This document shows positions 3,596 through 29,312 of a stretch of DNA of 64,000 nucleotides, piece by piece. The notes below the pieces were generated by a model that worked only from the letters and a program-made list of their open reading frames with translations, was not told where the DNA came from and did no database searches. The number at the start of each line of letters is the position of its first letter. The stretch's first letter is position 1. A program made the position numbers and the translations under genes. Origin of the DNA: a virus (lineage: Duplodnaviria > Heunggongvirae > Uroviricota > Caudoviricetes); IMG/VR virus record IMGVR_UViG_3300020171_000017, positions 48,685 to 112,684 of that record; one strand, written 5' to 3'.

Positions 3596-6500
3596 ATGGC
3601 AAACGAAGATATATTACTTACAGTAGGCATTAGCCTTGAATCGATAAAGAAAGCCAAACAGCAGCTTATTTCTGAAATTGCTCAGATAAAAGTTCCTGAT
3701 GTTGGTGGTATTGATGATACTGTACGGTCGCTAAAAGAACTTACTAAAGAGAGACAAGCACTTAATACTGCCGCTAAATCTTCGAAACTTATCGACGCGA
3801 ATAACGTAAAATTTGCCGCTGATGTCGCTAAAGCTATTGATAAAGAAATAACTTCTACGTACAAAGCTGATGAAGCTAATAAGAAACTGGCTATTTCTAC
3901 CGCTTTCTATACGAAAGTAGCGCAAGAAGAGGGTAATACTCTTGCTAAATTAACTGCTGAAAGAAATATTTACTATAAAGCTACTGCACAAAACATTAAA
4001 TTAGACGAAAAAGGTGCCGCGCGATTAAAAGAAATAGAGTCTTTACGCCAAAAAGCAATCCAATCACAATTAACGCAAAAGCAAGATACTCCGAAAGCCG
4101 AAGAGTTCATGAAGGCTAACCAACAGGTTGAAAATCTTGCTAAAACTACCGCGTATTATTCTGAAAAGAACAAGATTATGGGCACTACTTTAAATAGCGT
4201 TACTTCAGAACTAAATGCTTATTTAAAGGTAGAAGCTGACGGTATTACATTAACCGGCGATGCTCTCGCGCAAAAAGAAAAGTTGACTACGCAGTACGCT
4301 AAATTAGCAAAAGCACAGAAAGGTTTTTTTCATGGCATAGATTTAGGCAGGTTGATGCTCTGGGCCGTAGGCTGGAAGGTAATTTACGGCGCGTTGAATA
4401 TAGTATTAAATAGTTTTGGTGAAGTATTTACTATAGTCGGTAAGGTAAATGAAGTTATTCTTCAATCAAGAATCGTTAATCAAGAGACTGCTGCTATATT
4501 TACTAAAGATTATGATCAAATGCGGAAGGCGATATTTAATTTTTCTAAAAATTCTTCTGTGTCTGTAGTACAATTAGCCAATGCATATAAAATACTCACT
4601 TATGAAGGTGCGAAACTTAGTACTTCATTAGCGGCATTACCGAATGTACGTAATCTGATGGTTATTACCGGTGAGAAAGAGAATGTCGTCGCACAGGCTT
4701 TAATTGAGACTTATGAATTGTTTGGTAATAAAGTAAGATCAGCAGGCACTGAAAGCGCTAAATTAACACGCATAACAGATATACTTGCCACTGTATTTAC
4801 GAAAGCGCATATCTCTTTGTCTGAATACCAGAATATAATGGGGTTTATTGCGCCTATAGGGTCTGAAGCAGCAGAGAGTTTCGAGTTTCTTGCTGGTATG
4901 CTTATTTTTGCTGACGCACAAATGTTAGGCGGTAGGCGCGCGGGTATGGCGCTAATGGAGACGCTTGTAGGTTTGACAGTGAATACAGGTAAGTTGTCAG
5001 AAGTATTTGGTATTACCTTTCAGCCCGGAGAAATGATTACCGTAGAAAAAGTATTGAATAAGATTAGATATCATATAAAAGATTTATCTGATCCACAAAA
5101 AAGATACTTACTGTCTAATATATTTAAAGGTTCAGCATTAGAGTTAATGATAAAAGCGCTTAAAGAAACTAACGAAGGTATTGTTGATTTAACAAAGAAT
5201 GCTGATGGATTAGGTGAAAAATTAAATGAAAGTATGAGAAAAGCACATCCTGCCACAATATTTTTTAGTAACATCTGGAAAGATATTGCTAAAAACATGG
5301 AAAAAGCTTCTACTGATGCAGGCAATGCTGCTGATGATTATCGTGAAATGGTGCGAGAGCAAGGTAAGTTACGGCGTGAACCTGCAATGGAGAGAGAGTT
5401 CCCAGAACTTAAAGCAAAAGGTTTAGAATCAAGTACTGAGTTTGGTAAATCTCCATTAGGCGCGAGTATCGGTTTTGGTAAAGAGCAGTTGGCAAACTTA
5501 AAAGAAAGTAAAGATTTATGGTCAGGTAATAATGAAAAAGTTAAAGAAATGGCAAAGAATGTTAAAGAAATGGTTAAGGCTGAATTTGTTTATACATACG
5601 AATTAAAAAGCCAATTATCTTTACTTGATAAAAAACAACAGCTAACTCTTGCTGAGGCTGCGGGAGCGTCTTTTTCTTATTTAAATCAACAAAAGATGAA
5701 TATCGCTTTAGAAGAAAGTGTGTCTTGGATTGAAGATGAATCAAAGAAACAAAAAATAATAAATGAAATTTTATCTTTAAAAGAAGCTACAGCAAAAAAT
5801 ATTTATGATGTTTTTGCCGAAAATGTTGATATTCACGAGCATGAAAAACAAATTCTAGCGTCTACTAACGAGATTCTAGCTGAGAAGTATGCTTTGCAAG
5901 TTAAGATGACCGAAGAAATTAGAGCTTTAGCCGACGATTTACAATCTAAAACCGCTGATTTCGCGAAAAATTTAATGACTGGGACTGGTAATATAAAAGA
6001 ATTTTTAAATGGAATTACAGATAGTTTTAGAACTACTTTCGCTAATAATTTAGTGCAGATGTTTGGAGAAAAAACAGGGATATTTGCGAGTATGGCGGGT
6101 ACGTTTATGTCGCCAATTGCTAAAGCTCATTATAATGGCATTCAGTCAGCAGTGCCTAGTATCATAGCCGCCCATGTAAAAGGAATTACCGATGGTATGG
6201 CTAGTGCACAAAGTGGTGGATCACCAGGTGTTGGGGCACAAGGTGCAGGTCAATTTGGTGCAATGACTGGTTTTATGGGGAATATAGGTAGTATTTTTGG
6301 AGGTCAAAAAGGAGCACAAACAGCTACCGTTTCACCAATGAAAGCAGCAGGTGGTTCTACTCAGGTACCAGTAAAACCAGCGGGAAGTAGATTAAATCTC
6401 GCGGCTGCTGGTAGAGCAGGAGGACAAGCTCTAGGTGCTGCTGGAGCTCTTTACGGAGGATACCAAGGCGTAATGGCGCAAAGAGGGCAAGGTTCTGGTA

Positions 6501-6832
6501 CTGGTGCGTTAGGTGGAGCGATGTCGGGAGCAATGGCGGGGAGTATGTTTGGTCCATGGGGTATGGCTATAGGTGCCGTAGTGGGCGGCGTAATGGGGGC
6601 GATACAGAGTGGTAAGAAAAAAAAGGACATACCTCCTGAAATAAAACAACAAACCATTGAAATTACGTCCAGACTAAACGTGAGTAACCGCGAATTGCAG
6701 ATTGTAAACAGGAATTTAGAAAATATAAGAAAAGGTTTTGAGGGTTTTATTTTTCAACGGTCCGCTTATTTTTCTGAGAGTCGTGCCAGTGAAGAGTTTG
6801 CTTCAGATAAAAGTAGAGGGTATATAGGATGA
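3596..6832 (+). CDS. tail tape measure protein
   Basis: 1078 aa, coiled-coil-rich N-terminal two-thirds, Gly/Ala-rich C-terminal region, downstream of chaperone pair. Confidence 0.8.
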   Translation: MANEDILLTVGISLESIKKAKQQLISEIAQIKVPDVGGIDDTVRSLKELTKERQALNTAAKSSKLIDANNVKFAADVAKAIDKEITSTYKADEANKKLAISTAFYTKVAQEEGNTLAKLTAERNIYYKATAQNIKLDEKGAARLKEIESLRQKAIQSQLTQKQDTPKAEEFMKANQQVENLAKTTAYYSEKNKIMGTTLNSVTSELNAYLKVEADGITLTGDALAQKEKLTTQYAKLAKAQKGFFHGIDLGRLMLWAVGWKVIYGALNIVLNSFGEVFTIVGKVNEVILQSRIVNQETAAIFTKDYDQMRKAIFNFSKNSSVSVVQLANAYKILTYEGAKLSTSLAALPNVRNLMVITGEKENVVAQALIETYELFGNKVRSAGTESAKLTRITDILATVFTKAHISLSEYQNIMGFIAPIGSEAAESFEFLAGMLIFADAQMLGGRRAGMALMETLVGLTVNTGKLSEVFGITFQPGEMITVEKVLNKIRYHIKDLSDPQKRYLLSNIFKGSALELMIKALKETNEGIVDLTKNADGLGEKLNESMRKAHPATIFFSNIWKDIAKNMEKASTDAGNAADDYREMVREQGKLRREPAMEREFPELKAKGLESSTEFGKSPLGASIGFGKEQLANLKESKDLWSGNNEKVKEMAKNVKEMVKAEFVYTYELKSQLSLLDKKQQLTLAEAAGASFSYLNQQKMNIALEESVSWIEDESKKQKIINEILSLKEATAKNIYDVFAENVDIHEHEKQILASTNEILAEKYALQVKMTEEIRALADDLQSKTADFAKNLMTGTGNIKEFLNGITDSFRTTFANNLVQMFGEKTGIFASMAGTFMSPIAKAHYNGIQSAVPSIIAAHVKGITDGMASAQSGGSPGVGAQGAGQFGAMTGFMGNIGSIFGGQKGAQTATVSPMKAAGGSTQVPVKPAGSRLNLAAAGRAGGQALGAAGALYGGYQGVMAQRGQGSGTGALGGAMSGAMAGSMFGPWGMAIGAVVGGVMGAIQSGKKKKDIPPEIKQQTIEITSRLNVSNRELQIVNRNLENIRKGFEGFIFQRSAYFSESRASEEFASDKSRGYIG

Positions 6833-8205
6833 AAATTAATATGAAAAAAATAAAAGTTTGTTGTAATTATTGTAATAAAATAATATTTACATCTAATTGG
6901 TCATTAAAAAATTATAAACATCATTTTTGTAATAATCTTTGTATGCGTAAATTTTATAAAGGTAAAAATCACCCTAGGTTTTCTAAAAAAGTATTAGTTC
7001 ATTGTAAAAATTGTAAAAAAGATATTTTAAGAAAAAAAAGCCACATAAAGAAAAATAAATTTAATTTTTGTAATTTAAAATGTAGAAGTATTTTTTATAA
7101 AATTAATCTTGGATTAAATAATCCAAGATATTGTAAAATTAAAGTTAAATGTTTATATTGTAAAAAGGTTATTTTTAGAAAACCTAGTCGAATTAAAAAA
7201 CAAAAAAATCATTTTTGTGATAAGGATTGCTTAACAAAATATCAAACTAAACAAATAAAAATTAGTTGTGATGTCTGTGGTAAACAATTATTTAGAAAAA
7301 TTTCTGATTTTAAAAAACATAAACATCATTTTTGTAATAAAAAATGTTATGGTAAATCTATTATTGGAAAAAATAATCCTAATTATAAGAATATTACAAA
7401 AATTCATATAAATAAAAAAGCAACAAAAAAAATAAAGCCTTTGATAAAATCACAAAAAAATAAAGAGGTAAAAATAAAATGTACTTGTTGTAAAAAAATA
7501 ATTTATAGAACAATTAAGCGTATAAAAAAGAATAAGAATAATTTCTGTAGTATAAAATGTTGCAATACTTTTTATAAAAATGAAAATAGTCCAAATTATA
7601 CTAAAATAAAAGTACTTTGTAAACAGTGTAAAAAGATTTTATTTAAAAATATTTCTTGTGTAAAAAGACAAAAACATCAATTTTGTGATAGAGTTTGTTT
7701 TAGTAAATGGCGGGATAAGGTATCAAAAGTTAAAGTTATTTGTGCTTGTTGTAAACATACTTTTTTAAGAAAAAAATGCCATTTAAAAAAATTCAAAAAT
7801 TATTTTTGTAGTAATAAATGTAGAAATATTTTTTTTAAAGATCATTTACCTTTTGTTCCTACACAATTAACAGGCAAAGATCACCCAGGTTGGAATAATG
7901 GTTCATCATTTGAACCGTATGGTCTAGATTTTAATAATAATTTGAGAGAATTTATTCGTAAACGTGATAAGTATATTTGCCAAAATCCTAATTGCGGCAT
8001 ACCTGAAAAAGAATGTTTTAAAGATTTAATTTCACATCATATCGACTATAATAAAAGGAATAATCATCCAATAAATTTAATAGCCTTGTGCCAAAGTTGT
8101 CATAGTAAAAGTAACTTTAGCAGAGGTTATTGGAAAACTCTTTACGAAGATATACAGATTAAACGTAAAGTACATATGTTAGAAAGAGCTGCAGAACAAC
8201 CTTAA
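6829..8205 (+). CDS. HNH endonuclease with seven N-terminal tandem Cys-rich (zinc-ribbon-like) repeats
   Basis: 7 repeats of C-x2-C-K-x-I/L-F-R-K...K-K-x-K-x-x-F-C-x3-C (~45 aa each); C-terminal HNH motif ...SHHIDYNKRNNHPINLIALCQSCHSK; extreme Lys/Asn/Ile codon bias versus neighbours. Confidence 0.7.
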   Translation: MKINMKKIKVCCNYCNKIIFTSNWSLKNYKHHFCNNLCMRKFYKGKNHPRFSKKVLVHCKNCKKDILRKKSHIKKNKFNFCNLKCRSIFYKINLGLNNPRYCKIKVKCLYCKKVIFRKPSRIKKQKNHFCDKDCLTKYQTKQIKISCDVCGKQLFRKISDFKKHKHHFCNKKCYGKSIIGKNNPNYKNITKIHINKKATKKIKPLIKSQKNKEVKIKCTCCKKIIYRTIKRIKKNKNNFCSIKCCNTFYKNENSPNYTKIKVLCKQCKKILFKNISCVKRQKHQFCDRVCFSKWRDKVSKVKVICACCKHTFLRKKCHLKKFKNYFCSNKCRNIFFKDHLPFVPTQLTGKDHPGWNNGSSFEPYGLDFNNNLREFIRKRDKYICQNPNCGIPEKECFKDLISHHIDYNKRNNHPINLIALCQSCHSKSNFSRGYWKTLYEDIQIKRKVHMLERAAEQP

Positions 8206-8221: not shown

Positions 8222-8512
8222 ATGGAAATAATTAATAAAAATGGTGAAAAAAAGAATAATGTATATCCAGTATCTGACTTCTATCTTGCGGCATTTTTAA
8301 AAGCACGCGGTTTAAAACTAAATGAAACTCAAAGAGAAGGCCGCAGAGTTACTTTCGTTTTTGAAGATCGTGAAGACAGACCTAATTTAACTAAAGATTT
8401 TTATAATGACGGCAGTGTGCAGGTTAATCCGTTTATTCATGCAATACAAGATCTAAAATCTATAATCTACAACGTTCCTGATGAGGTGATAAAAAAGGCT
8501 TCGCCAGCCTAA
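8222..8512 (+). CDS. hypothetical protein (96 aa)
   Basis: RBS AAAGGAGAC; co-directional. Confidence 0.4.
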   Translation: MEIINKNGEKKNNVYPVSDFYLAAFLKARGLKLNETQREGRRVTFVFEDREDRPNLTKDFYNDGSVQVNPFIHAIQDLKSIIYNVPDEVIKKASPA

Positions 8513-8531
8513 ATAAAAGGGAGATGTAAAA

Positions 8532-9062
8532 ATGGAAAACAAAGAAGTGATAAAAGAAGCGAGTAGGCTCGCGATGGAAGAGATGAAAAACGAAGAAATA
8601 AACCGTATCAAATTAGTAGTAAAAACAACATTAGAACAACTTCAGAAAAAAGAAGCGGCACGCAAAGTTCTAGACGAAGAAATAAAGATTCTAAACCGTG
8701 ATATTGCCGACTTAAAAGAAGGCCGTATCGACCGTATTAAAGAACGGCAAGATATCGATCCGAAAGCGAAAGAAGTTTCGGTGATAATAATTAAAGAAAA
8801 GATAGTCGAGCGTCAAGTGCCTAGTCCTTGGTATATACCATGGGTAATTGAAGTTAAACCACAATATATACCAATATATCCAACAGTTAATCCTATATGG
8901 TGTGGTACAAATCTTACTTTATTGGATAGTAGTGCGACAATAAATGGTATATCGAATTTAACACTTACCAGTAATTCAATATTCACAACAACTAATTCGA
9001 TGACACATATGTACACTGGTGGCACATATCAATTAGAAAATGGCACAATAAAGAATCTTTAA
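8532..9062 (+). CDS. hypothetical tail-associated protein with N-terminal coiled coil
   Basis: RBS AAGGGAGATG; 176 aa. Confidence 0.4.
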   Translation: MENKEVIKEASRLAMEEMKNEEINRIKLVVKTTLEQLQKKEAARKVLDEEIKILNRDIADLKEGRIDRIKERQDIDPKAKEVSVIIIKEKIVERQVPSPWYIPWVIEVKPQYIPIYPTVNPIWCGTNLTLLDSSATINGISNLTLTSNSIFTTTNSMTHMYTGGTYQLENGTIKNL

Positions 9063-9536: not shown

Positions 9537-11219
9537 ATGGCGAAATCACTTTCAGCTAAAGCTCAGAATCTTATAGATCGTAAGTCTATTACACGCTCTT
9601 TTGAAATTCAGATCAATGGCGTTAAGAATAACCATGTGATTACTTACTCTCAAGATTTTACCGCTGATTTCGGTATCGCGCAATTAACAGTAGCATTAAA
9701 CAATGACAATGGCATCTACTCTATCGGCGGTACATCAGAAATAAAATTAGGTACTTCAGTAAAATTAATAGAACGATTTTACGCTACAGGCAGTGATGAA
9801 TTTACTAATTTTACAGGTTATGTAAGGCAACGCAATGTATCTCACGCTTTTAAATCAAATACTATAACTTTAACTTGTTTAGATTATATCTGTAAGTTAG
9901 AAGATACAGATATAAACTTGATCGAAGAAGCAGATAAAATACAAGTAACTAATGAAACTTTAACACCAACATATCTGCCTGCACCTAATGATAGCATGGC
10001 GGTAATTTTTAATTTTAATCACGATACTTTAGCTAGTAAACCACCGATAACTATAGTAATTAAAAATACTGATACTTTGATAGAAACACCGCAATCTGAT
10101 GGATTCGAATGTAATTATGAAACAGGGCAGTTAGTATTAGGCAGTGCGTTAAATGCGTTATATAATTACAGTATTATTTGTAAAAGTTATTATTTTTATC
10201 CTATAGGCCTATATGTTGAAGATATACTTGAAGATCTAATTATCACCCAGGACGGTTATGGAAATTTTCTTTTTAATGAAACATCAGCGCAAAATTTAAT
10301 TGACAACCATTTAACCGAAACGCTTTTAAATGTAGAAGGCAGGTCTACCGACACATTAGTGCGTAATATGTTTACTGAAACAAAAGCTATACATACAACA
10401 TTAACTGCTGAATGTGGTGCTGGTGAAACATCAATTAGTGTGGCTGATACAACAGGTTTTCCTACTTCAGGCACGGCAGAGGTCAACGGTGATGTGTTTA
10501 CTTGGTCAGGAAAAACATCGACTACTTTAACAGGCATACCGTCTAGCGGTGCATCTGCGTTAAAGACGCATCCAATAGATGCGAATGTTATTTATGAAAC
10601 TACATATGCGGCGGGTAGGATTTGGTATCTCTCATATTCAAATTTAATTACTGATTTAACAGCAGACGATTTTACGGTAGTGCCTTCAACAAGTGCGACT
10701 ATAGATTATATCAGTAAGAGAGGTGACCAAAGCGGCAGCTACATTATTTTTAGTGCGGCAGTGCCTTCGACTTCGACAGTGACTTGCGATGTTGATTATA
10801 GTTTTTCCACACTTCAGTCTACCGGCATTGAAATTAACAAAGTGACATTCACAGAAGAGAAAACAGAGAATAGATTAGAGGCAATAAAAGATTTACGGGA
10901 ATTTTTGGCGCCTAACTATCTCATACGTACAATCGGTACCGATAAGATCTGGGCTTCGTACGTCAGGCAAAAAACTATAGCCGATTATACGTTAGAATTA
11001 AAAACAAAATTGGATTATGCGGAGGATTCGGATATCTATACTCGAACTAAATTTTTCGGTAAATCGCAAAATCCTAAGAATGTATGTCTTGAAGAAGATG
11101 TCACTATTAATGCCAGTAACCAAGTCTACTCTGTTACGGTAAATAATCAGGAGTTAACATATATAGGTGATGAAGGTAATTTTAGAGTATATTCAATAGG
11201 TCTTTCTGAGGAGACATAA
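9537..11219 (+). CDS. putative distal tail / baseplate protein
   Basis: 560 aa, follows tape measure region, Thr/Ser-rich. Confidence 0.4.
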   Translation: MAKSLSAKAQNLIDRKSITRSFEIQINGVKNNHVITYSQDFTADFGIAQLTVALNNDNGIYSIGGTSEIKLGTSVKLIERFYATGSDEFTNFTGYVRQRNVSHAFKSNTITLTCLDYICKLEDTDINLIEEADKIQVTNETLTPTYLPAPNDSMAVIFNFNHDTLASKPPITIVIKNTDTLIETPQSDGFECNYETGQLVLGSALNALYNYSIICKSYYFYPIGLYVEDILEDLIITQDGYGNFLFNETSAQNLIDNHLTETLLNVEGRSTDTLVRNMFTETKAIHTTLTAECGAGETSISVADTTGFPTSGTAEVNGDVFTWSGKTSTTLTGIPSSGASALKTHPIDANVIYETTYAAGRIWYLSYSNLITDLTADDFTVVPSTSATIDYISKRGDQSGSYIIFSAAVPSTSTVTCDVDYSFSTLQSTGIEINKVTFTEEKTENRLEAIKDLREFLAPNYLIRTIGTDKIWASYVRQKTIADYTLELKTKLDYAEDSDIYTRTKFFGKSQNPKNVCLEEDVTINASNQVYSVTVNNQELTYIGDEGNFRVYSIGLSEET

Positions 11220-11927
11220 ATGGCTAGTACTGTCGCAAAATATCCAAGGACTGTAGAAAGTGCTTTTACATGGGCTAATGATATAGATAATGTTAAAATA
11301 GCTGACAATATTTCTTCTACACGTAATGGTAATGGTTATATAGTTGCGTCTAATTTTGATTTTAATATCCCTAACGGATCAACTATAAAAGGTATAGTAG
11401 TAGAAGTATATGCAAGTTCTGCTGGTTTATATGGTGATAATTCTGGTGGATTAACTAACGTTTCTTTAATGAAAAATGGTTTTTTTACTGGAGGTGTTAA
11501 CAGAGCATCTGATGACCCTAGCCCTTGGTCGCCAGCGACAATGGAAATTAGAACATATGGTAGCCCAATTGAATTATGGGGATTTGAATGGACTGCTGCT
11601 GATATAAATGAATCAATCAGAGATATATGGGCAAAAACTGGTTTTGGAGTAGAAGTACTTTTTAATTCTTCTCCAGGACACTTTTCAATATCCATTGATG
11701 CTATTCGTATCACTGTTTATTATGTTCCGTCACCTGTTATTGATATTACTAATGCTAATCCATATACAGGTAAAACTCTTACAGGTAAAATATTGACTGA
11801 TACAGTTACGCCAAAAGTAAGAATTAATGGTGTATTAATAGATAATAAAGCGCATGAAATGTTATTACAACCAGTTACAGTTTTAGTTACTACAAAAACT
11901 ACTTACGAACAAGCGAAAGGTAAATAA
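11220..11927 (+). CDS. hypothetical tail/baseplate protein
   Basis: TAAATG overlap with upstream gene; 235 aa. Confidence 0.4.
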   Translation: MASTVAKYPRTVESAFTWANDIDNVKIADNISSTRNGNGYIVASNFDFNIPNGSTIKGIVVEVYASSAGLYGDNSGGLTNVSLMKNGFFTGGVNRASDDPSPWSPATMEIRTYGSPIELWGFEWTAADINESIRDIWAKTGFGVEVLFNSSPGHFSISIDAIRITVYYVPSPVIDITNANPYTGKTLTGKILTDTVTPKVRINGVLIDNKAHEMLLQPVTVLVTTKTTYEQAKGK

Positions 11928-11930
11928 TAT

Positions 11931-13256
11931 ATGGGTGGTGGAGGCGGCGGAGAAATAACTGTTACAACATTTTTTTATTATAAAGTATATTTGCCTTCAA
12001 AAGGTATTGTACGTACAGAACCAATTTATTTATATGATGCTGGTGGTCTTTTATTATATACACTAGCACCTAATAATCCTCGAGTAGATTATGAAAATGG
12101 TATGTGGGAAGTACCTGGTCAAGAACAAAGTACTCTTATTGAACGTATATCAACTGCAAGTTATTGGCTTATGTATTCATCAGATAAATTAGAGATAGAT
12201 TATAATAACATTTTATTTAAAATAGATAAAAGTTTAATCTTAAATGTAGCAAATACTACTATTACCGCTGATTTTGAATATGCTACGGCATTAGCTCCAA
12301 TCTATTCTGGCCGTAATATGTTTGACGGCAGATGGGACACCCAATCTCATGTAGTTTTTTATTCAAAACCTCCAGCAGGTTATGCTTTTGCCGAAATAGA
12401 TCTCGGTCAGGCATATACTATACAGGCGATAGACATAATTCATGGTTTTTTTAAACCTGATGAAAAACGATCTTTTGATATTAACAATAAATATTCATTA
12501 GAATATTCTACTAATGGCATTAATTATTATCCTATTTGTAAAGAAGCAACTAACTTTAGTTTAAGTGGTGGTGCCTCGATATCATTTGAACGTGATAAGA
12601 TTGGTGATGATTTCAGTGTTAGATATTTTAAACTTATCGTAAATGATATGGAAAAAATAGATTATAAGAATGGTTGTTGGGTTGTGGCATTTACAGAATT
12701 CGCGGCTTTTAAAGAGGTGATTTTGAAGGGTGAGGCTACACTTATTTCTACTACACATCTTAGTTCTGCCTATACATCAGGCACAACTTTGAATGTAGAT
12801 TCTACTGTAGGATTTTCAGCTTCAGGCACAGCCTATTTAGAAGATGAAACGGCGTTTACTTACACATCGACAACAAGTACAGCGTTTCTAGGTTGTTCAG
12901 GCCTAGTAGCTGCGGCGATCGATTCTAGAGTAAGTTCTTCATTAGAAACTTCTACAACGGTGTATGATGAATTTTCGTTATTACCGAATATAGGGGATAA
13001 GGTTTTCAAAGAATCTGCTCTTAATGATTTTTTAGATACGACAACCCGTGTGGAAAAAAGGGCAAAAGATTTTTTAGTAGAGTTCAACAAGGACCATTCG
13101 AAGGCAACTATAAGTTCAACTTACGCGCCTCATGTTAGAGTAGGGCAAACGATTAAAATTGTAGATTCTACAAATCACATTTCAAGAAATTACTTTGTCG
13201 AATCAATCCGTGGATCGGATAATGGAATAGATATTGTGTTGGCGTATTATCCCTAA
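11931..13256 (+). CDS. hypothetical tail/baseplate protein (poly-Gly N-terminus)
   Basis: 441 aa, starts MGGGGGGE. Confidence 0.4.
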   Translation: MGGGGGGEITVTTFFYYKVYLPSKGIVRTEPIYLYDAGGLLLYTLAPNNPRVDYENGMWEVPGQEQSTLIERISTASYWLMYSSDKLEIDYNNILFKIDKSLILNVANTTITADFEYATALAPIYSGRNMFDGRWDTQSHVVFYSKPPAGYAFAEIDLGQAYTIQAIDIIHGFFKPDEKRSFDINNKYSLEYSTNGINYYPICKEATNFSLSGGASISFERDKIGDDFSVRYFKLIVNDMEKIDYKNGCWVVAFTEFAAFKEVILKGEATLISTTHLSSAYTSGTTLNVDSTVGFSASGTAYLEDETAFTYTSTTSTAFLGCSGLVAAAIDSRVSSSLETSTTVYDEFSLLPNIGDKVFKESALNDFLDTTTRVEKRAKDFLVEFNKDHSKATISSTYAPHVRVGQTIKIVDSTNHISRNYFVESIRGSDNGIDIVLAYYP

Positions 13257-21274: not shown

Positions 21275-21345
21275 TGGCTATAATTGGAATTAAACCAATA
21301 CTCGAAACTTATGAAACTTTTGTTCTGTCGTTAAACTATATAGCT
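21275..21345 (-). tRNA. tRNA-like gene, weak anticodon stem (loop could read CAU or UCA)
   Basis: acceptor AGCTATA/TATAGCC, perfect T-arm ATTGG-TTTAATT-CCAAT; anticodon stem poorly paired. Confidence 0.3.
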
Positions 21346-21357
21346 GTTGTTGTTATT

Positions 21358-21429
21358 AGCAGAAGTGGGATTCGAACTCACAATAACTTGTTTCTAAAAC
21401 AAGTTCCTTTTCCAATTAGGATATTCTGC
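21358..21429 (-). tRNA. tRNA with anticodon UAG (Leu-decoding) but short variable arm
   Basis: acceptor GCAGAAT, anticodon stem CTTGT/ACAAG, loop TTTAGAA, T-loop TTCGAAT. Confidence 0.5.
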
Positions 21430-21448
21430 TGTTAAATTATAACTTAAA

Positions 21449-21523
21449 CGTGCTCGGAAAGAATTGAACTTTCACATTCCTATTTTAGAAGAATAGTGGC
21501 TTATCCATTTTGCCTACGAGCAC
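21449..21523 (-). tRNA. tRNA-Arg (UCU)
   Basis: acceptor GTGCTCG/CGAGCAC perfect, anticodon stem CTATT/AATAG, loop CTTCTAA, T-arm GAAAG-TTCAATT-CTTTC. Confidence 0.65.
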
Positions 21524-21528
21524 AAATC

Positions 21529-21888
21529 TTAGCAATTAACAAAATCCTCGTCGTCGCTCTCATCTTCCACTAAATCGCGCAATTCGTTTAACGTCGCTCT
21601 TAAAGCTTCTTTATTGCCATAGGCTAACATTCTATCTTCAGCTATATCGTGATCGCACTCTTCTTTACATTCAGGGCATATCGTACCTGGCACTTCTTTG
21701 AATGCTACAAAACTTGCAACGAAACATACATTGTTTTTGTTCGCTTCAGTGTATCTTTCGATTGCGTCAATTATATCTTGTAGTTCTTTACTGATTACCT
21801 CATCGTTCTCGTCTGGCATATTGTCTATCATTTTTTGTTCTCCTAAATATGTTTTGGGTAACAGTTTACCCTGATACTTTTTGCTCAA
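21529..21888 (-). CDS. hypothetical acidic protein
   Basis: 119 aa, CPECKEECDHD motif. Confidence 0.4.
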   Translation of the reverse strand: MSKKYQGKLLPKTYLGEQKMIDNMPDENDEVISKELQDIIDAIERYTEANKNNVCFVASFVAFKEVPGTICPECKEECDHDIAEDRMLAYGNKEALRATLNELRDLVEDESDDEDFVNC

Positions 21889-21938
21889 GTTTATGCGTTT
21901 TGCATATAACCACGACCATAAGTTTTAAATTTTTATTT

Positions 21939-22130
21939 TTAATATACTAAAATTTTCAAAATCCATTCACCGTAAGGATATTCTGGATTAGTTATCCATT
22001 TTTCCTTATATTGTTCTATGAATTTAACTTCATAAGTATGCATCTTTCTAATACTCTGTTTAGCTTTTTCTAATGTCCTATAAACTGTTTTAAGATGCCA
22101 CCCCTCCTCAAAAACTACATATACATACAT
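21939..22130 (-). CDS. hypothetical protein (63 aa)
   Basis: ORF in minus-strand block. Confidence 0.3.
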   Translation of the reverse strand: MYVYVVFEEGWHLKTVYRTLEKAKQSIRKMHTYEVKFIEQYKEKWITNPEYPYGEWILKILVY

Positions 22131-22372
22131 TTAAAATCCTTTCTTTTTAATGCCCAATTAGAATATCAGACTCCAATTATTTTTCGTTGTAGGCGAAGTG
22201 CCATAACCAATTAGGCGAACAGGGCAAAATTTCACGTGCAGAGAGTTAAACTTTGCAACTTAATTAATTTATAGAGCCATTTTTGCAATGATCAATTGCT
22301 ATTCACAACTCAAAAATAAAAAAAGTCAGGCACTCAATTGGTATGCATCCCTTATGCCTACGCTAAATTAAA

Positions 22373-22772
22373 GTGGATCTGGTGGGAATCGAACCCACGT
22401 CCTAAAATATCCAAATATAAAACCCTACATACATAGCTTATTATTTTCACCTTTACATTAATGATTGAATAAGCACGATCATCAATGTGCAAATCTTTAT
22501 TTGATTACTTCTATCGCAAAGATTAATCAATAGAATTAGCATAATAAATGACCTTCTTTAGCTCTTATGCCGAACTGAAGAAGGTGCTTTACCTAAATTT
22601 AGGCAAAGACTGGGTCCCCAGCAAAGATAGGTGCTACAATATCTTCAGCCGAAGCTAATAACCGCTGATTTTCGTCTGCGTTTATTTTTGTGCAAGATTT
22701 TTTACACAGCCAACTTGCGTCTGTGATATGCGTTTTATATTCGACCTATTTCAGTCTAACCCGATCAGACCC
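22373..22772 (-). ncRNA. ssrA: tmRNA-like (ssrA-like) gene, tentative
   Basis: ~400 nt without ORF; 5' GGGTCTG pairs with 3' CAGATCC adjacent to T-arm GTGGG-TTCGATT-CCCAC; internal ...AAAAAUAAAC GCA GAC GAA AAU... resembles canonical resume region, open tag frame ADENQRLL...VFA-UAA. Confidence 0.45.
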
Positions 22773-22801
22773 AAATATATTCAAAGAACAGTGTTAAATA
22801 G

Positions 22802-22888
22802 CTGTGGCGGTTGGATTCGGACCAACAATGAGAATTTCTTCTAATAGCTTAACAGGCTATCCCCTGCAACCAATTCGGGTACACCACA
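22802..22888 (-). tRNA. type-II-like tRNA (87 nt, long variable arm), identity unresolved (anticodon loop CUGUUAA)
   Basis: acceptor TGTGGTG/CGCCACA, anticodon stem ATAGC/GCTAT, variable-arm hairpin AGAA-GAAA-TTCT, T-arm GTTGG-TCCGAAT-CCAAC. Confidence 0.4.
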
Positions 22889-22893
22889 ATATC

Positions 22894-23124
22894 TTATTTT
22901 TTTCTATCTTCCATTAATTCACCAATAAACAATATTATATCACTTAAACAATCTTTATTCCAAATAGTATCATAATTTGGAAAGAATGCGTAACATCTCC
23001 AATTCACGTACCATTTTATAATCCCTAACCGATCACTGTGCATCTTCGACACCACTTCATAAACATTTGTTTTTTCTTTCTTCTCTAAAAGATTAAATGT
23101 TAAGTATTTTGATTGCATATTCAT
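22894..23124 (-). CDS. hypothetical protein (76 aa)
   Basis: small ORF, minus-strand operon. Confidence 0.3.
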   Translation of the reverse strand: MNMQSKYLTFNLLEKKEKTNVYEVVSKMHSDRLGIIKWYVNWRCYAFFPNYDTIWNKDCLSDIILFIGELMEDRKK

Positions 23125-23345
23125 CTCCGTTTAATATCAGAATAATAATAAATATCAATAAGCATAGCAACTACTGTGTAATATAATTCTTCTTGTGTGT
23201 TTATATCTAATTTTTTAAAAATATGTTTGAGGTTCTCTCTAGTATATTTTGGGATAGCACACAAATTGTCTATGGCATCAATATCTTCATATTTAATTTT
23301 TAATAATTTATGCACATAATTCCAATCTTTGAATTTTTTCTTCAT
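23121..23345 (-). CDS. hypothetical protein (74 aa)
   Basis: start/stop overlap with downstream gene. Confidence 0.3.
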   Translation of the reverse strand: MKKKFKDWNYVHKLLKIKYEDIDAIDNLCAIPKYTRENLKHIFKKLDINTQEELYYTVVAMLIDIYYYSDIKRR

Positions 23346-23359
23346 ATATCTTTTATTCT

Positions 23360-23436
23360 TGGTGCCACGACTCAGTGTCGAGCTGAGATCTCTGCGCCTT
23401 CAACGCAGCACTTTTGACCAGTTAAGTTATCGTGGC
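23360..23436 (-). tRNA. tRNA-Phe (GAA), CCA encoded
   Basis: acceptor GCCACGA/TCGTGGC-A-CCA, D-stem ACTT/AAGT, anticodon stem CTGCG/CGCAG loop TTGAAGG, T-stem CTCAG/CTGAG. Confidence 0.7.
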
Positions 23437-23715
23437 GTACATCTTATCAATTACCAACTGCATCTTCTGCCTCACAGAAGCGTTATCAGTTACTAAAACT
23501 ATTTCTTCAGGCAGATATTGTTGGTTTTGCTCTAACCAACAAAGTATATCATAACCTGTATATTCTTTGCCGTTATAGAAATCAGCCAAATCATGATCTA
23601 AGAGAAGGAGATTATATGGTTGTGATTGCAACGCCAATACGCCCTCAATATAAGACCTTGCTGTATGGGTCGCTACTTCTAAATTTCTTTTGTCATCAAT
23701 TAATAGTATGTTCAT
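23422..23715 (-). CDS. stand-alone response-regulator receiver (CheY-like) domain protein
   Basis: MNILLIDDKRN...LLLLDHDL...GYDIL pattern typical of REC domains; 97 aa. Confidence 0.45.
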   Translation of the reverse strand: MNILLIDDKRNLEVATHTARSYIEGVLALQSQPYNLLLLDHDLADFYNGKEYTGYDILCWLEQNQQYLPEEIVLVTDNASVRQKMQLVIDKMYATIT

Positions 23716-23745
23716 TTTTTATACAACTCCTTGTATGGTTTTAAA

Positions 23746-23817
23746 AGCCCCAATCGGGATTTGAACCCGAACCTTCTCGGTGGAAACGAGATATGCTGCC
23801 AAAAACACTTTTGGGGC
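23746..23817 (-). tRNA. tRNA-Gly (UCC)
   Basis: acceptor GCCCCAA/TTGGGGC, anticodon stem TCTCG/CGAGA loop TTTCCAC, T-loop TTCAAAT. Confidence 0.7.
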
Positions 23818-23833
23818 GTTGTTATTCTTTTAA

Positions 23834-23905
23834 AGCCCCCTGACAGATGTGCGCTGTCCTGTCAAGTTTACAAAACTTGTCCTTCGCTGTCTAAGGTTAG
23901 GGGGC
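23834..23905 (-). tRNA. tRNA-Thr (UGU)
   Basis: acceptor GCCCCCT/AGGGGGC perfect, anticodon stem CAAGT/ACTTG loop TTTGTAA, T-stem GACAG/CTGTC. Confidence 0.65.
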
Positions 23906-23924
23906 AGTCTTAACTTAATATCAG

Positions 23925-23995
23925 AGCCAAAGACGAGAATTAAACTCGTGCCTGAACATTGGCAATGTTCGATACTATCACTATACGACTTTGGC
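23925..23995 (-). tRNA. tRNA-Gly (GCC)
   Basis: acceptor GCCAAAG/CTTTGGC, anticodon stem GAACA/TGTTC loop TTGCCAA, T-arm ACGAG-TTTAATT-CTCGT. Confidence 0.6.
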
Positions 23996-24140
23996 ATATA
24001 TTCAGTCGAGCAGTACGATTCACACGTAACTTTTTGCACTACGGCAAACTTGCTGTATCTATTACCCTAATGCCTTGAGCCAATTCCCGGGATGCTCGGC
24101 ACCTACTCTTATAGATTTACAACACTGCTCGGATTTTCAG

Positions 24141-24214
24141 TGGAGCTGGAGCGAGTTGAACGCTCACTTATATTGATTGCAAAGCAATTGCCTTCCCAAT
24201 TAGGCAACAGCCCC
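24141..24214 (-). tRNA. tRNA-Ala (UGC), probable
   Basis: acceptor GGGGCTG/CAGCTCC (G3-U70 wobble), D-arm GCCT-AATTGGGA-AGGC, loop TTTGCAA, T-arm GAGCG-TTCAACT-CGCTC. Confidence 0.5.
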
Positions 24215-24218
24215 ATAT

Positions 24219-24692
24219 TCATTCATTTTCAATTATATGATACACAACTTCTTTACCTAATTTTCTAGCTTCTTTCGCTGTCCAACATGCACCAGATTTC
24301 ATATGATCATTAGTATGACAATGGTAACATTTATTAAATCGCATGCCATTATATCCTTTAGGATATTTATCAACTAAAATTACATGTAATATGTCTGAAT
24401 CTTTAGCAATATCTAAATTACGTTGTTTAAAACCATATTCAGCGTCCCAAATATTTTGTTTTGGGATTTTAAGATCTAATAAAAATCCAAGCCGCTTCGA
24501 TTCTTCTTCCCCATAAATGTCTATACCACCTACAGGTGAATGACCTGAAACAAAATAAATAGGTTCTATTTTTTTATTTTTTAAACAATTTAAAGAAAAA
24601 TCAATTAAAATACTTGTGAGTAATTCTTTAGCTTCTATTTTACTTTTTTCAGTGAATTTATCCTCACCATGACCTATTATGCCTATTTTCAT
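24219..24692 (-). CDS. Rossmann-fold protein (SLOG/LOG/DprA-like?), function unknown
   Basis: MKIGIIGHGED...YFVSGHSPVGGIDIYGEE pattern. Confidence 0.35.
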   Translation of the reverse strand: MKIGIIGHGEDKFTEKSKIEAKELLTSILIDFSLNCLKNKKIEPIYFVSGHSPVGGIDIYGEEESKRLGFLLDLKIPKQNIWDAEYGFKQRNLDIAKDSDILHVILVDKYPKGYNGMRFNKCYHCHTNDHMKSGACWTAKEARKLGKEVVYHIIENE

Positions 24693-24706
24693 AGTTCCTT
24701 TCTTAG

Positions 24707-24789
24707 TGCGTGCTGATGGATTTAAACCACCGAATCCCGAAGGAACCCGCTCTACAGGCGAGTGCGATTAGTCTCTCTGCCAAGCACGC
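24707..24789 (-). tRNA. tRNA-Tyr (GUA), type II
   Basis: acceptor GCGTGCT/AGCACGC, anticodon loop CTGTAGA, long variable arm TCC-TTCG-GGA, T-stem GGTGG/CCATC. Confidence 0.65.
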
Positions 24790-24798
24790 ATAATTTTT

Positions 24799-24872
24799 GG
24801 GTGGATAACGAGAAATCGAACTCGCTCCTAAAGAGCCACAATCTTCCGTGCATCCTCTACACTATATCCACC
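24799..24872 (-). tRNA. tRNA-His (GUG) with encoded G-1
   Basis: G-1 opposite discriminator C73, acceptor GTGGATA/TATCCAC, anticodon stem GAAGA/TCTTT loop TTGTGGC; T-arm slightly atypical. Confidence 0.6.
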
Positions 24873-24877
24873 ATATT

Positions 24878-25396
24878 TTATTCATTCTCAATCCCCAAGT
24901 ATTTGCACCACAATTCGTGAATAAATCCTAACTTCATTTTTAAGATCATCTTAAACCCATGTGGTTTAGTTGGTATTTTTAACAACTTCATACCTGCTTC
25001 TTTTGGTGTTCTATTATCTTTAATACCATTACAAATATTACATGCCGTCGTACAATTTTCCCAAGTTGTTTTCCCGCCCTGAGATTCTGGCAAAACATGG
25101 TCTATAGTCAATTTTCTAGGCTCGAATTTCACGCCGCAATACGAACAAGTAAAATTATCGCGAATATGTATATTATGTTTTGAGTAAGAAACAAAAGCTA
25201 TTTTTTCAAACGCTACTCGCACATATCGTTTCAATCTTATGACTGCAGGAATTTTCATAGTAAGTGAAACACTATGTACCTCCTGCTCATAAGAGGACTC
25301 AAGAATAGCTTTTTCTAAATAAATTAAATTAATAGATGATTGCCAACTACAAAACCCAAGGAACGTAAAATCTTGATTCAAAATTAAGACACGCAC
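24878..25396 (-). CDS. HNH endonuclease
   Basis: CSYCGVKFEPRKLTIDHVLPESQGGKTTWENCTTACNICNGIKDNR = HNH/McrA-type motif. Confidence 0.65.
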   Translation of the reverse strand: MRVLILNQDFTFLGFCSWQSSINLIYLEKAILESSYEQEVHSVSLTMKIPAVIRLKRYVRVAFEKIAFVSYSKHNIHIRDNFTCSYCGVKFEPRKLTIDHVLPESQGGKTTWENCTTACNICNGIKDNRTPKEAGMKLLKIPTKPHGFKMILKMKLGFIHELWCKYLGIENE

Positions 25397-25399
25397 TTC

Positions 25400-26155: not shown

Positions 26156-26172
26156 GTTTATAATCCTTTTAG

Positions 26173-26258: not shown

Positions 26259-26266
26259 AATTTTTA

Positions 26267-26686: not shown

Positions 26687-26710
26687 TTCTTCATCTCCAT
26701 TTAAAGTAGT

Positions 26711-28288: not shown

Positions 28289-28290
28289 TT

Positions 28291-29053: not shown

Positions 29054-29056
29054 ATA

Positions 29057-29306: not shown

Positions 29307-29312
29307 ATTCTG

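What the first reader, a model, noticed from the sequence alone, without database searches (positions are those of the whole stretch)
6829..8205. HNH endonuclease fused to seven tandem Cys-rich repeats, wedged between tape measure and distal tail genes
The N-terminal 330 aa consist of seven ~45-aa repeats (C-x2-C-K-x-I/L-F-R-K...K-K-x-K-x-x-F-C-x3-C), i.e. up to seven zinc-ribbon/treble-clef modules, followed by an HNH nuclease. Codon usage is much more A/T- and Lys-rich than the flanking structural genes, suggesting recent insertion. A multi-zinc-ribbon array could give modular, extended DNA recognition.
Basis: seen in the sequence. Interest (0 to 1): 0.6.

Follow-up and report, generated by a model that had tools for sequence, protein, structure and literature searches.

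The report
Seven-zinc-finger HNH homing endonuclease gene
This is a selfish, mobile nuclease gene sitting in the 23-base gap after a phage's tape measure gene; the kind is ordinary, but its presumed DNA-binding arm, seven FCS/MYM-type zinc fingers in a row, is unusually long and has not been studied experimentally in any paper I could find.

Summary
ORF 6829..8205 (+, 458 aa) has seven units with identical C-x2-C-x18-C-x3-C spacing, against a mean of 0.03 and a maximum of 2 in 200,000 shuffles. A complete zinc-type HNH motif follows. GC is 21% against 32-44% in the flanks.

The units are FCS/MYM-type (TRASH-clan) treble-clef fingers. This rests on a Pfam zf-FCS hit above threshold, a profile match to the ZMYM5 finger, and AlphaFold models showing seven separate confident modules.

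The gene is a free-standing homing-endonuclease-type insertion. Two relatives that are equally close (85-87% in a neighbouring tail protein) run from the tape measure stop through 23 nt to the next gene, with no HNH gene. Two other relatives carry orthologues with all seven fingers. Presence does not follow backbone relatedness. The last ~100 nt of the tape measure gene co-segregate with the insert.

The insertion is not recent: orthologues are only 62-72% identical and each finger keeps its position. The HNH part is under strong purifying selection (dN/dS about 0.10).

The same finger type occurs 0-8 times in thousands of metagenomic HNH proteins, is sometimes fused to Vsr-type nucleases, and occurs in cultured phages annotated only as "HNH endonuclease". 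DNA binding and cleavage are inferred, not shown. I file it as a long-array member of a known kind, of moderate interest.

The parts
6829..8205 (+). Free-standing HNH endonuclease gene (458 aa; possible alternative start at 6841). This is the inserted element.
   Evidence: ORF and translation. phrog_1271 'HNH endonuclease' E=7.5e-27. Absent from the same site in L099, L101 and L036.
6862..6942 (+). FCS-type zinc finger 1 (C12-x2-C-x18-C-x3-C38)
   Evidence: zf-FCS E=0.0028 when scanned alone. pLDDT about 91-97.
7003..7083 (+). FCS-type zinc finger 2
   Evidence: zf-FLZ E=0.005 and zf-FCS E=0.017.
7150..7230 (+). FCS-type zinc finger 3, the best Pfam match
   Evidence: zf-FCS: 26.3 bits for the whole protein (gathering score 22.4), with the best-scoring stretch at aa 105-138. 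Single-finger AlphaFold model has pLDDT 82.8.
7267..7347 (+). FCS-type zinc finger 4
7387..7449 (+). Lys-rich linker between fingers 4 and 5 (aa 187-207), predicted disordered
   Evidence: pLDDT below 50 for residues 187-207.
7480..7560 (+). FCS-type zinc finger 5. It has a true F-C-S motif and is the best-conserved finger (89% identical to L001).
7618..7698 (+). FCS-type zinc finger 6
   Evidence: zf-FCS E=0.021.
7741..7821 (+). FCS-type zinc finger 7 (F-C-S present)
7879..7893 (+). Last of five linker motifs [ND]-[HNS]-P-x-[WYF], here GKDHPGWNNG. The other four are at nt 6967-6981, 7117-7131, 7372-7386 and 7585-7599.
   Evidence: the motif is present in 142 of 227 family proteins and absent from a 25-kaa control set.
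7918..8163 (+). HNH (His-Me finger) nuclease domain. Zinc ligands C384, C389, C421, C424. Catalytic motif H403-H404, N416, H425.
   Evidence: PF01844 scores 20.4 bits against a gathering score of 21.4. Foldseek matches McrA, Cap5 and IscB with probability 1.0. dN/dS about 0.10.
3596..6832 (+). Tape measure gene. Its stop codon overlaps the start of the HNH gene.
   Evidence: PHROG tape measure families, E=8e-14 to 4e-10. The orthologue in L101 carries PF10145 PhageMin_Tail.
6713..6832 (+). Last ~100-120 nt of the tape measure gene. This tract co-segregates with the HNH gene and is a candidate co-conversion tract or target-site-immunity region.
   Evidence: Window versus L001 is 84% nt identical here, against 60-65% to genomes lacking the gene. 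Window versus L001 is only 58-59% in the 200 nt further upstream.
8222..8512 (+). DUF5659 gene, the downstream border of the insertion site. Its ribosome-binding site TAAAAAGGAGA begins at the TAA stop of the HNH gene.
   Evidence: PF18903 E=2.2e-15. Junction alignment.

Best explanation
The gene is a free-standing homing endonuclease gene of the HNH class. It occupies the short spacer between the tape measure gene and the next gene of the late tail operon, and is probably co-transcribed with that operon.

Proposed mechanism, all inferred:
- The N-terminal string of seven independently folded, very basic FCS/MYM-type zinc fingers, joined by short [ND]-[HNS]-P-x-[WYF] linkers, lays the protein along a long stretch of duplex DNA.
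- This positions the C-terminal zinc-stabilised HNH domain to nick or cut a related phage genome that lacks the gene. The most likely target is in or near the 3' end of that genome's tape measure gene.
- Recombinational repair from the gene-carrying genome during co-infection then copies the gene, together with about 100 nt of upstream flank, into the cut genome.

Shown here: the protein architecture, the fold class, the intact catalytic motif under purifying selection, the precise filled and empty sites, the patchy distribution, and the co-segregating flank.

Not shown: zinc binding, DNA binding, cleavage, target identity and homing itself.
For: (1) Filled versus empty site. L101 and L099 have a tape measure stop, 23 nt, then the DUF5659 start codon. 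The window and L001 have the 1.37-kb ORF exactly in that spacer, and its TAA stop begins the DUF5659 ribosome-binding site. L036 also lacks the gene.

(2) Patchy distribution. All four close relatives are 85-89% identical in the 560-aa protein. Yet the window is closer to L101, which lacks the gene, than to L001, which has it, in several genes: 96 vs 88%, 94 vs 86% and 83 vs 75%. Of 48 non-redundant related junctions, 40 have room only for one small gene after the tape measure gene.

(3) Co-segregating flank. See the 6713..6832 tract.

(4) Spread to unrelated loci. The HNH domain is 57-64% identical to finger-bearing HNH genes inside glycosyltransferase operons of other phage contigs. It is only 41-44% identical to the non-FCS HNH genes found at the same tape measure junction. 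Those other loci show their own presence/absence differences between L012 and L013. One 57-kb contig holds three copies.

(5) Domain-swap logic. The same HNH domain is joined to 0-8 FCS fingers, to NUMOD3, or to HTH modules. FCS fingers are also joined to a Vsr-type nuclease and to the 'homing endonuclease associated repeat'.

(6) Function retained. dN/dS is about 0.10 for the HNH part and about 0.40 for the finger array. All seven fingers are kept in three orthologues, and each finger is most similar to the finger in the same position.

(7) Fold..

(8) Literature. Free-standing phage endonuclease genes sit in intergenic regions between conserved genes, cleave at a distance from their own insertion site, and have bead-on-a-string DNA-binding regions (PMC2988022). 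An FCS finger binds DNA and RNA (PMC13449738).
Against: There is no biochemical evidence of any kind.

The orthologues are old residents of this site (62-72% identity), so current mobility is not demonstrated. Presence/absence could also arise from deletion or from ordinary mosaic recombination.

The only FCS finger with binding data that I found binds nucleic acid without known sequence specificity. Eukaryotic MYM fingers are better known for protein contacts (from memory). At 25% Lys, the array could give mostly non-specific electrostatic binding.

The HNH Pfam score is just under the gathering threshold: 20.4 against 21.4 bits.

The dN/dS values are rough. With GC3 of 0.11, synonymous differences are compressed, so dS is not comparable with that of the flanks.

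The co-segregating tract rests on two genomes with the gene and two without. The more distant pair, L002 and L036, does not show the same residue pattern.
Confidence: 0.74

Rival explanations
1. A domesticated phage nuclease. The HNH enzyme serves the phage itself, for example by degrading host or competitor DNA, excluding co-infecting relatives without copying itself, or assisting DNA packaging. The finger array tethers it to DNA in general.
For: The gene has been retained at the same site in three diverged phages with all fingers intact and with purifying selection on the nuclease. It appears to be expressed as part of the late operon, with no promoter of its own. The extreme Lys content suggests strong non-specific DNA affinity. 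HNH genes of other lineages recur at the same junction.
Against: Equally close relatives lack the gene and are otherwise collinear, so it is dispensable. It is not next to a terminase or portal gene, as packaging HNH proteins are. Family members sit at many unrelated loci, with presence/absence differences there too. It has no match to defence-system models.
Confidence: 0.12
2. The fingers are not DNA readers. They bind RNA or protein, as proposed for eukaryotic FCS/MYM fingers, or simply act as a spacer or scaffold. Target choice is made by the HNH domain and its linkers alone.
For: The best sequence matches are the ZMYM5 MYM and PHC1 FCS fingers. The biological ligand of the FCS finger is unsettled, and its nucleic-acid binding has no known sequence specificity (PMC13449738). 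YacG, the best structural match, binds a protein, gyrase (PMC4083091).
Against: In this family the fingers occupy the place that NUMOD3 or HTH DNA-binding modules occupy in sister proteins. They are also attached to two or more unrelated nuclease folds. Positions +12, +17, +25, +27, +28 and +31 are specific to each finger yet conserved between orthologues, mostly on the C-terminal helix, which fits distinct reading roles. Copy number varies from 0 to 8, as expected if it tunes the length of the site.
Confidence: 0.1
3. A decaying remnant: a formerly mobile endonuclease gene that is now inactive and merely not yet deleted.
For: It has been resident for a long time. The finger array is under weaker constraint (dN/dS about 0.40). 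Some family members have lost HNH ligands, for example P0016 with 'CEKDH' in place of CxxCH.
Against: The 458-codon ORF is intact in three lineages. All 28 finger cysteines, all four HNH cysteines and the H-H-N-H residues are present. dN/dS is about 0.10 in the nuclease domain.
Confidence: 0.04

Closest known systems
Free-standing HNH homing endonucleases of T-even phages (MobA-MobE) and the intron-encoded HNH enzymes I-HmuI and I-TevIII
   Same: An HNH nuclease joined to a modular, bead-on-a-string DNA-binding region. The gene sits in an intergenic gap between conserved genes, is patchily distributed among related phages, and flanking markers are inherited with it (PMC2988022).
   Different: The domain order is reversed: here the binding region is N-terminal and the nuclease C-terminal, as in the EDxHD family. 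The binding region is a seven-unit FCS-type zinc-finger array rather than NUMOD or HTH modules. The HNH domain is a zinc-containing McrA/IscB-like type. No activity data exist.
FCS/MYM-type zinc fingers (Pfam zf-FCS PF06467, TRASH clan): ZMYM2-6, PHC1/Polyhomeotic, L3MBTL2, and the bacterial YacG
   Same: The C-x2-C-x(17-22)-[F]C-x3-C signature. Pfam hit above the gathering score. Profile match to ZMYM5 (2das, E=9.6e-5) and PHC1 (2l8e, E=0.011). The single-finger model is closest to YacG (TMq 0.66-0.68), ZMYM5 and the L3MBTL2 FCS finger. Tandem arrays also occur in ZMYM proteins (from memory).
   Different: This is a phage protein fused to a nuclease. The Ser of 'FCS' is present in only 2 of the 7 units. 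The structural matches are not individually significant (all E>1), as expected for a 43-residue domain.
Finger-plus-HNH proteins already deposited from cultured viruses: Bacillus phage vB_BanS_Sophrita gp256 and Halorubrum tailed virus 28 gp29 (both annotated 'HNH endonuclease'); PHROG 1271
   Same: The same architecture on a smaller scale: about 4 or 3 FCS-like fingers, G-E-x-x-x-x-[WY] type linkers, and a C-terminal zinc HNH domain. Both sit between unrelated conserved genes (exonuclease V/Dda helicase; Mu gpG-like/tail tube). phrog_1271 matches residues 253-456.
   Different: Only 26-28% identical. They have 3-4 fingers rather than 7. None has been characterised, and I found no paper that discusses the finger array.
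EDxHD (Vsr-like) homing endonucleases such as I-Bth0305I, and the NUMOD concept
   Same: N-terminal modular DNA-binding repeats followed by a C-terminal nuclease (PMC3239194). FCS fingers are found fused to Vsr (P0081, 30.6 bits against a gathering score of 27). Related zinc ribbons are found fused to DUF559 nucleases at the neighbouring junction in L071 and L074.
   Different: The window protein carries an HNH nuclease, not a Vsr-type one. FCS fingers are not among the four NUMOD motifs as I recall them (from memory).
Terminase-associated HNH proteins of cos-type phages (for example HK97 gp74)
   Same: A small zinc-type HNH domain encoded in a phage late region.
   Different: Those genes lie beside the terminase and portal genes and are required for packaging (from memory; PMC5714182 mentions the class). 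This gene lies after the tape measure gene and is absent from close relatives.

Membership tests
HNH / His-Me finger nuclease superfamily | A beta-beta-alpha-metal core with the catalytic His, a structural Asn and a metal-binding His or Asn | tested here: met
   H403-H404 ... N416 ... H425 are present and nearly invariant in the 23-sequence alignment. The model shows strands 401-404 and 417-420 followed by helix 422-428. Foldseek matches McrA, Cap5 and IscB with probability 1.0. phrog_1271 E=7.5e-27.
HNH / His-Me finger nuclease superfamily | Score above the Pfam PF01844 gathering threshold | tested here: inconclusive
   20.4 bits against a cut-off of 21.4 for the isolated C-terminal 123 aa. 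Precomputed tables list PF01844 for several close homologues.
zf-FCS / MYM-type zinc finger (TRASH clan) | Cys4 signature C-x2-C-x(17-22)-C-x3-C with an aromatic residue before the third Cys | tested here: met
   Seven units with x18 spacing. The F before Cys3 is invariant in all seven units of the window protein and in all 21 units of the three orthologues.
zf-FCS / MYM-type zinc finger (TRASH clan) | Profile match above the curated threshold | tested here: met
   PF06467 scores 26.3 bits against 22.4 for the whole protein. Six of the seven units score E<1 when scanned alone. The PDB profile search has the ZMYM5 MYM finger as its top hit, E=9.6e-5.
zf-FCS / MYM-type zinc finger (TRASH clan) | Treble-clef fold: a zinc knuckle on a beta-hairpin plus ligands at the N-terminus of a helix | tested here: inconclusive
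   The predicted topology fits: two strands, a short helix and a C-terminal helix, at pLDDT 83-95. The top structural neighbours are all TRASH-clan members (YacG, ZMYM5, L24e, L3MBTL2 FCS), but every E-value exceeds 1. Zinc is not modelled.
zf-FCS / MYM-type zinc finger (TRASH clan) | Zinc actually bound | not testable with these tools
   This needs metal analysis of the purified protein.
Free-standing homing endonuclease gene | A separate ORF in an intergenic region between genes conserved among related genomes, not inside an intron or intein | tested here: met
   The tape measure protein ends with the same ...RGYIG* sequence with or without the gene. The ORF fills the 23-nt spacer.
Free-standing homing endonuclease gene | Sporadic presence among close relatives, not following the backbone phylogeny | tested here: met
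   Present in the window, L001 and L002. Absent from L099, L101 and L036. Backbone identities do not follow presence or absence of the gene.
Free-standing homing endonuclease gene | Flanking sequence inherited together with the gene (co-conversion) | tested here: inconclusive
   A ~100-nt upstream tract co-segregates with the gene in a comparison of two genomes with it and two without. The more distant pair does not show it.
Free-standing homing endonuclease gene | Site-specific cleavage of the allele lacking the gene, and biased inheritance in crosses | not testable with these tools
   This requires enzyme assays and phage crosses. No cultured host or phage is available.
Terminase-associated (packaging) HNH | Gene adjacent to the terminase or portal genes and conserved in all relatives | tested here: not met
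   Its neighbours are the tape measure gene and a DUF5659 gene. It is absent from close relatives.
Anti-phage defence nuclease | Match to known defence-system protein models or defence-type neighbours | tested here: not met
   No PADLOC hit for the protein. No NCBIfam hit.

The most novel reading that the evidence does not exclude
The FCS/MYM-type finger could be a true modular DNA-reading unit. Each of the seven fingers, with its NP linker, would contact its own few base pairs through finger-specific residues on the C-terminal helix. These phage nucleases would then carry a natural, extendable (1-8 unit) recognition array analogous to C2H2 arrays or TALE repeats. That would give a new scaffold for programmable nucleases. 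It would also provide the first tractable system for asking what eukaryotic MYM-finger arrays (ZMYM2-4), whose ligands are still debated, evolved from and can bind.
Probability: 0.15. Interest if true: 0.75.

Novelty: new member of a known kind. Interest (0 to 1): 0.38.

Why it matters
As a gene class this is ordinary: phages are full of free-standing HNH endonuclease genes.

Three things give it some value:
- It is an unusually clean natural example, with exact filled and empty sites and a co-segregating flank, in a lineage of large uncultured phages.
- It shows that the FCS/MYM zinc finger, known mainly from animal chromatin proteins and of unsettled ligand, is used in thousands of phage nucleases as a repeatable module. 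It sits where DNA-binding modules normally sit, in 0-8 copies, and on at least two nuclease folds.
- If the fingers read sequence one by one, long-array members such as this one would be the natural starting point for working out a recognition code and for engineering.

The target-site candidate at the tape measure 3' end makes a direct cleavage test easy to design.

Tried and rejected
- DNA-level tandem repeats: none apart from a 9-nt chance repeat. The repeats are ancient at the protein level.
- Nucleotide search of 7.6 kb against GenBank phages: no match. tblastn with the Lys-rich query found only seven weak HNH-domain hits, probably because the low-complexity filter masked the fingers. A less biased family member (P0039) was needed to find cultured-phage members.
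- IMG/VR scans with the tape measure protein and with the HNH protein gave only distant loci and no close relatives.
- The look-up of the window's own protein in the contig index failed, so the sample of origin is unknown.
With the HNH-domain alignment it found only two DPANN-archaeon MAG contigs, carrying NUMOD3-like HNH genes without FCS fingers. This gave no host clue.
- NCBIfam and PADLOC: no hits. A defence-system reading was rejected.
- Own promoter, terminator or an RNA hairpin hiding the ribosome-binding site, as in T4 endonuclease genes. Promoter-like hits were no more than expected for AT-rich DNA. There was no terminator on the + strand. The fold z-score was 0.43.
- The GC spike at 6200-6800 just upstream was considered as foreign DNA. 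It is the Gly/Ala-rich C-terminal part of the tape measure protein.
- Translational fusion of the tape measure protein to the HNH protein by frameshifting was considered because of the ATGA overlap. There is no slippery sequence, L001 has no overlap, and this was not pursued.
- Literature searches combining TRASH, FCS or MYM with HNH, homing endonuclease or phage found no paper describing this architecture. The library covers open-access papers only, so this is weak evidence of absence.
- The listing of cluster members for the NCBI-derived homologues returned no names except 'TRASH domain-containing protein' for a Siminovitchia fordii protein.
Full report
**1. The observation**

ORF 6829..8205 (+) is real and encodes 458 aa. 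Its ATG overlaps the TGA of the 1078-aa upstream ORF. A second ATG at 6841 is an equally plausible start.

The N-terminal 335 residues contain seven units with exactly the same cysteine spacing, C-x2-C-x18-C-x3-C. They start at residues 12, 59, 108, 147, 218, 264 and 305. In 200,000 shuffles of that segment the motif occurred 0.03 times on average and never more than twice. In all six frames of the 64-kb window it occurs only once more.

The units are 26-53% identical to each other. There is no tandem repeat at the DNA level, so this is an old, diverged protein repeat and not a low-complexity artefact.

The C-terminal ~95 residues carry a complete zinc-type HNH motif: C384-x4-C389, H403-H404, N416, C421-x2-C424-H425.

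The gene is 21% GC with GC3 of 0.11, against 32-44% GC and GC3 of 0.20-0.40 in its neighbours. The finger region is 25% lysine.

**2. What the repeat is**

- Scanned one at a time, six of the seven units give weak zf-FCS or zf-FLZ hits.
- A profile built from 23 family members finds the ZMYM5 MYM finger as its best solved structure (2das, E=9.6e-5). PHC1 FCS (2l8e), ribosomal protein L24e and the HNH domains of IscB and McrA follow.
- AlphaFold2 with that alignment gives mean pLDDT 81.5 but pTM 0.34. This means seven separately confident modules, each a beta-hairpin, a short helix and a longer helix. They are joined by linkers, two of which (residues 187-207 and 342-360) have low confidence. 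A confident HNH domain follows.
- A single-finger model (pLDDT 82.8) has as nearest solved structures YacG (TMq 0.66-0.68), the ZMYM5 TRASH domain, L24e, MYND and the L3MBTL2 FCS finger. All of these belong to the TRASH group of treble clefs, although no match is individually significant for so small a domain.
- zf-FCS, YacG, L24e and MYND are grouped together in the TRASH clan or family in the literature (PMC4047054, PMC4999995).

**3. What the gene is: relatives with and without it**

Orthologues at the same site. A first protein search found orthologues with 72% and 62% identity, P0002 and P0003. Both lie at the same place, in the order tape measure, HNH, DUF5659, 176-aa gene (L001 and L002). 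Their flanks are about as diverged as the gene itself: tape measure protein 76% and 58%. All three proteins have seven fingers, and each finger is most similar to the finger in the same position of the orthologue (50-89% on the diagonal against 21-53% off it). The insertion is therefore not recent, and the array is stable.

Wider survey of the junction. I collected homologues of the conserved 560-aa protein three genes downstream and fetched 80 related metagenomic loci. Among 48 non-redundant loci that include both the tape measure C-terminus and the start of the 560-aa gene:
- 40 have only 380-580 nt between them, room for one small gene;
- 3 have a short HNH gene of a different lineage directly after the tape measure gene;
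- 1 (L036) has DUF5659 and the 176-aa gene but no HNH gene;
- 4 have other inserts.

The decisive comparison. Two relatives are as close to the window as L001 is: L099 (87% in the 560-aa protein) and L101 (85%). Both run from the tape measure stop through 23 nt to the DUF5659 start, with no HNH gene. The junctions align as follows:
- L101: ...GGATAA-CAATT-TAAAAGGAGA...ATG
- window: ...GGATGA-[1.37-kb ORF]-TAAAAAGGAGA...ATG

The ORF therefore fills the spacer exactly.

Distribution and flanks. Backbone similarity does not follow presence of the gene. The window is closer to L101 (gene absent) than to L001 (gene present) in the 266-aa protein (96 vs 88%), DUF5659 (94 vs 86%) and the 441-aa protein (83 vs 75%). 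The last 100 nt of the tape measure gene are the exception. The two genomes with the gene are 84% identical there, against 60-65% to the genomes without it. In the 200 nt further upstream they are only 58-59% identical to each other. This is the pattern expected of a co-conversion tract, or of target-site variants that protect the carrier. It rests on only four genomes.

**4. The family**

An exhaustive search of 1.84 billion cluster representatives found 15,695 relatives at E<=1e-3 and 8,072 at E<=1e-10. Among the best 150, nearly all have an HNH-like motif. The number of strict FCS-type units per protein is distributed as 0:14, 1:17, 2:43, 3:32, 4:27, 5:9, 6:6, 7:1 and 8:1. The window protein is therefore at the long end.

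Modules are swapped freely in this family:
- The same HNH domain is joined in other members to NUMOD3 or helix-turn-helix modules.
- FCS fingers are joined to a Vsr-type nuclease (P0081, above threshold), to the Pfam 'homing endonuclease associated repeat' (P0092), and, judging by eye, to a PD-(D/E)xK-like C-terminus in an IMG/VR viral contig (L008).

In a 57-kb phage contig, three finger-HNH genes are scattered through a glycosyltransferase/methyltransferase operon. Comparison with a related 9.3-kb contig shows one site filled in one contig and empty in the other, and the reverse at the next site.

The window's HNH domain is 57-64% identical to these genes at unrelated loci. It is only 41-44% identical to the non-FCS HNH genes at the same tape measure junction in other relatives. 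That junction, together with the next one (where L071 and L074 carry zinc-ribbon plus DUF559 nucleases), looks like a hot spot that has been invaded more than once.

A linker motif, [ND]-[HNS]-P-x-[WYF], occurs five times in the window protein. It is found in 142 of 227 family proteins and not at all in a control set.

**5. Selection**

Nei-Gojobori estimates against L001 give dN/dS of 0.29 for the gene: about 0.40 for the finger array and about 0.10 for the HNH part. The flanking genes give 0.06-0.23. Because third positions are almost all A or T, dS is compressed, so these numbers are rough. The nuclease domain is nonetheless clearly constrained.

Comparing the 21 fingers of the three orthologues, positions +12, +17, +25, +27, +28 and +31 (counted from the first Cys) are conserved between orthologues (identity >=0.6) but differ between fingers (identity <=0.25). 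Most of these lie on the C-terminal helix. This fits, but does not prove, a distinct role for each finger.

**6. Mechanism (inferred)**

By analogy with free-standing phage homing endonucleases (PMC2988022), the protein would be made late in infection, from the tail operon. I found no promoter, terminator or regulatory hairpin of its own.

The basic finger string would bind a long DNA site. The HNH domain would then cut or nick a co-infecting relative that lacks the gene. Repair from the carrier genome would copy the gene and nearby markers across.

[quoted passage not shown] How much specificity the array contributes is therefore open.

**7. Comparison with what is known, and novelty**

The kind is known: a free-standing HNH homing endonuclease with a modular DNA-binding arm. 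The architecture is also already present in deposited genomes of cultured viruses, under the bare label 'HNH endonuclease':
- Bacillus phage Sophrita gp256 has about four FCS-like fingers and lies between exonuclease V and a Dda-like helicase.
- Halorubrum tailed virus 28 gp29 has three FCS fingers and lies in the tail module.

PHROG 1271 covers the C-terminal half of the window protein. BFVD contains many phage zinc-finger-plus-HNH models.

I found no paper that describes FCS-finger arrays in homing endonucleases. The searchable library is open-access only, so this is weak evidence.

I therefore file the gene as a new, long-array member of a known kind. The finger array as a DNA-reading device is the part worth an experiment.

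Noticed in passing
window 21275..30421 (- strand): A tRNA island with a phage-encoded tmRNA at 22371..22772. ARAGORN tRNAs and gives the tmRNA tag peptide ADENQRLLASAEDIVAPIFAGDPVFA. Rfam scores the tmRNA at 142.5 bits and finds one extra tRNA at 21275..21345. The island includes tRNAs for Lys (two), Asn, Cys, Phe, Tyr and His. The tmRNA points to a bacterial host for this ~135-kb phage.
   Followed up: partly
window 58985..59146 (- strand): A 53-aa stand-alone ORF consisting of one FCS-type finger (CQYCHKTKRRIVLKSIARQIKYCNKEC) and a basic tail. It is the only other occurrence of the motif in the window. It has no Pfam or NCBIfam hit. It could be a YacG-like small protein or the relic of another endonuclease gene.
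   Followed up: partly
window 9537..13256 (+): The 560-aa, 235-aa and 441-aa ORFs are all in the same reading frame and are separated only by TAA stops (...ACATAA ATG...; ...AAATAATAT ATG...). In several relatives (L036 10001-13624, L043 10001-13279, L080, L047) the region is one continuous ORF of about 1100-1200 aa. In L001 only the last 58 aa of the 235-aa ORF have a counterpart, and that counterpart is fused to the 560-aa homologue. Possible explanations are gene fission, read-through or a variable central insert. It is unexplained.
   Followed up: partly
window 8222..9062 (+): The DUF5659 gene and the following 176-aa gene are themselves an accessory pair. They are present in the window, L001, L002, L036, L099 and L101. 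They are absent from L016, L080 and about 40 more distant relatives, where the tape measure gene is followed directly by the 147-aa homologue.
   Followed up: partly
L071 1159..1815; L074 659..1492: In two relatives, the next junction (between the 147-aa homologue and the 560-aa gene) holds genes with two to four CxxC...CxxC zinc ribbons, a GKNNPNYKDG-type linker and a C-terminal DUF559/Vsr-like nuclease. The interval from the tape measure gene to the 560-aa gene is therefore a hot spot for free-standing nuclease genes of different catalytic types.
   Followed up: partly
L011/L012 (Logan SRR22387764 contig, 57 kb) and L013 (ENA ERZ27247124): A phage-like contig with a prohead protease carries a long operon of glycosyltransferases, methyltransferases, epimerases, a sulfatase and a radical-SAM protein. 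Three FCS-finger HNH genes (P0011, P0007, P0010) are interspersed in it. A related contig has such genes at partly different sites.
   Followed up: partly
window 6200..6800 (+): A GC spike (48-52%) just upstream of the finding. It is the Gly/Ala-rich C-terminal segment of the tape measure protein (weak DUF1269 hit, glycine-zipper-like by eye), not foreign DNA.
   Followed up: yes
BFVD entries for similar phage proteins are named after CTCF. Automatic annotation evidently mistakes these FCS-type arrays for C2H2 arrays.
   Followed up: no
L036 708..767: The 60-nt spacer at the empty site of this relative contains a perfect 21-nt direct repeat (ATATAATCAAAATATGATTA-type, two copies). Its significance is unknown.
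   Followed up: no
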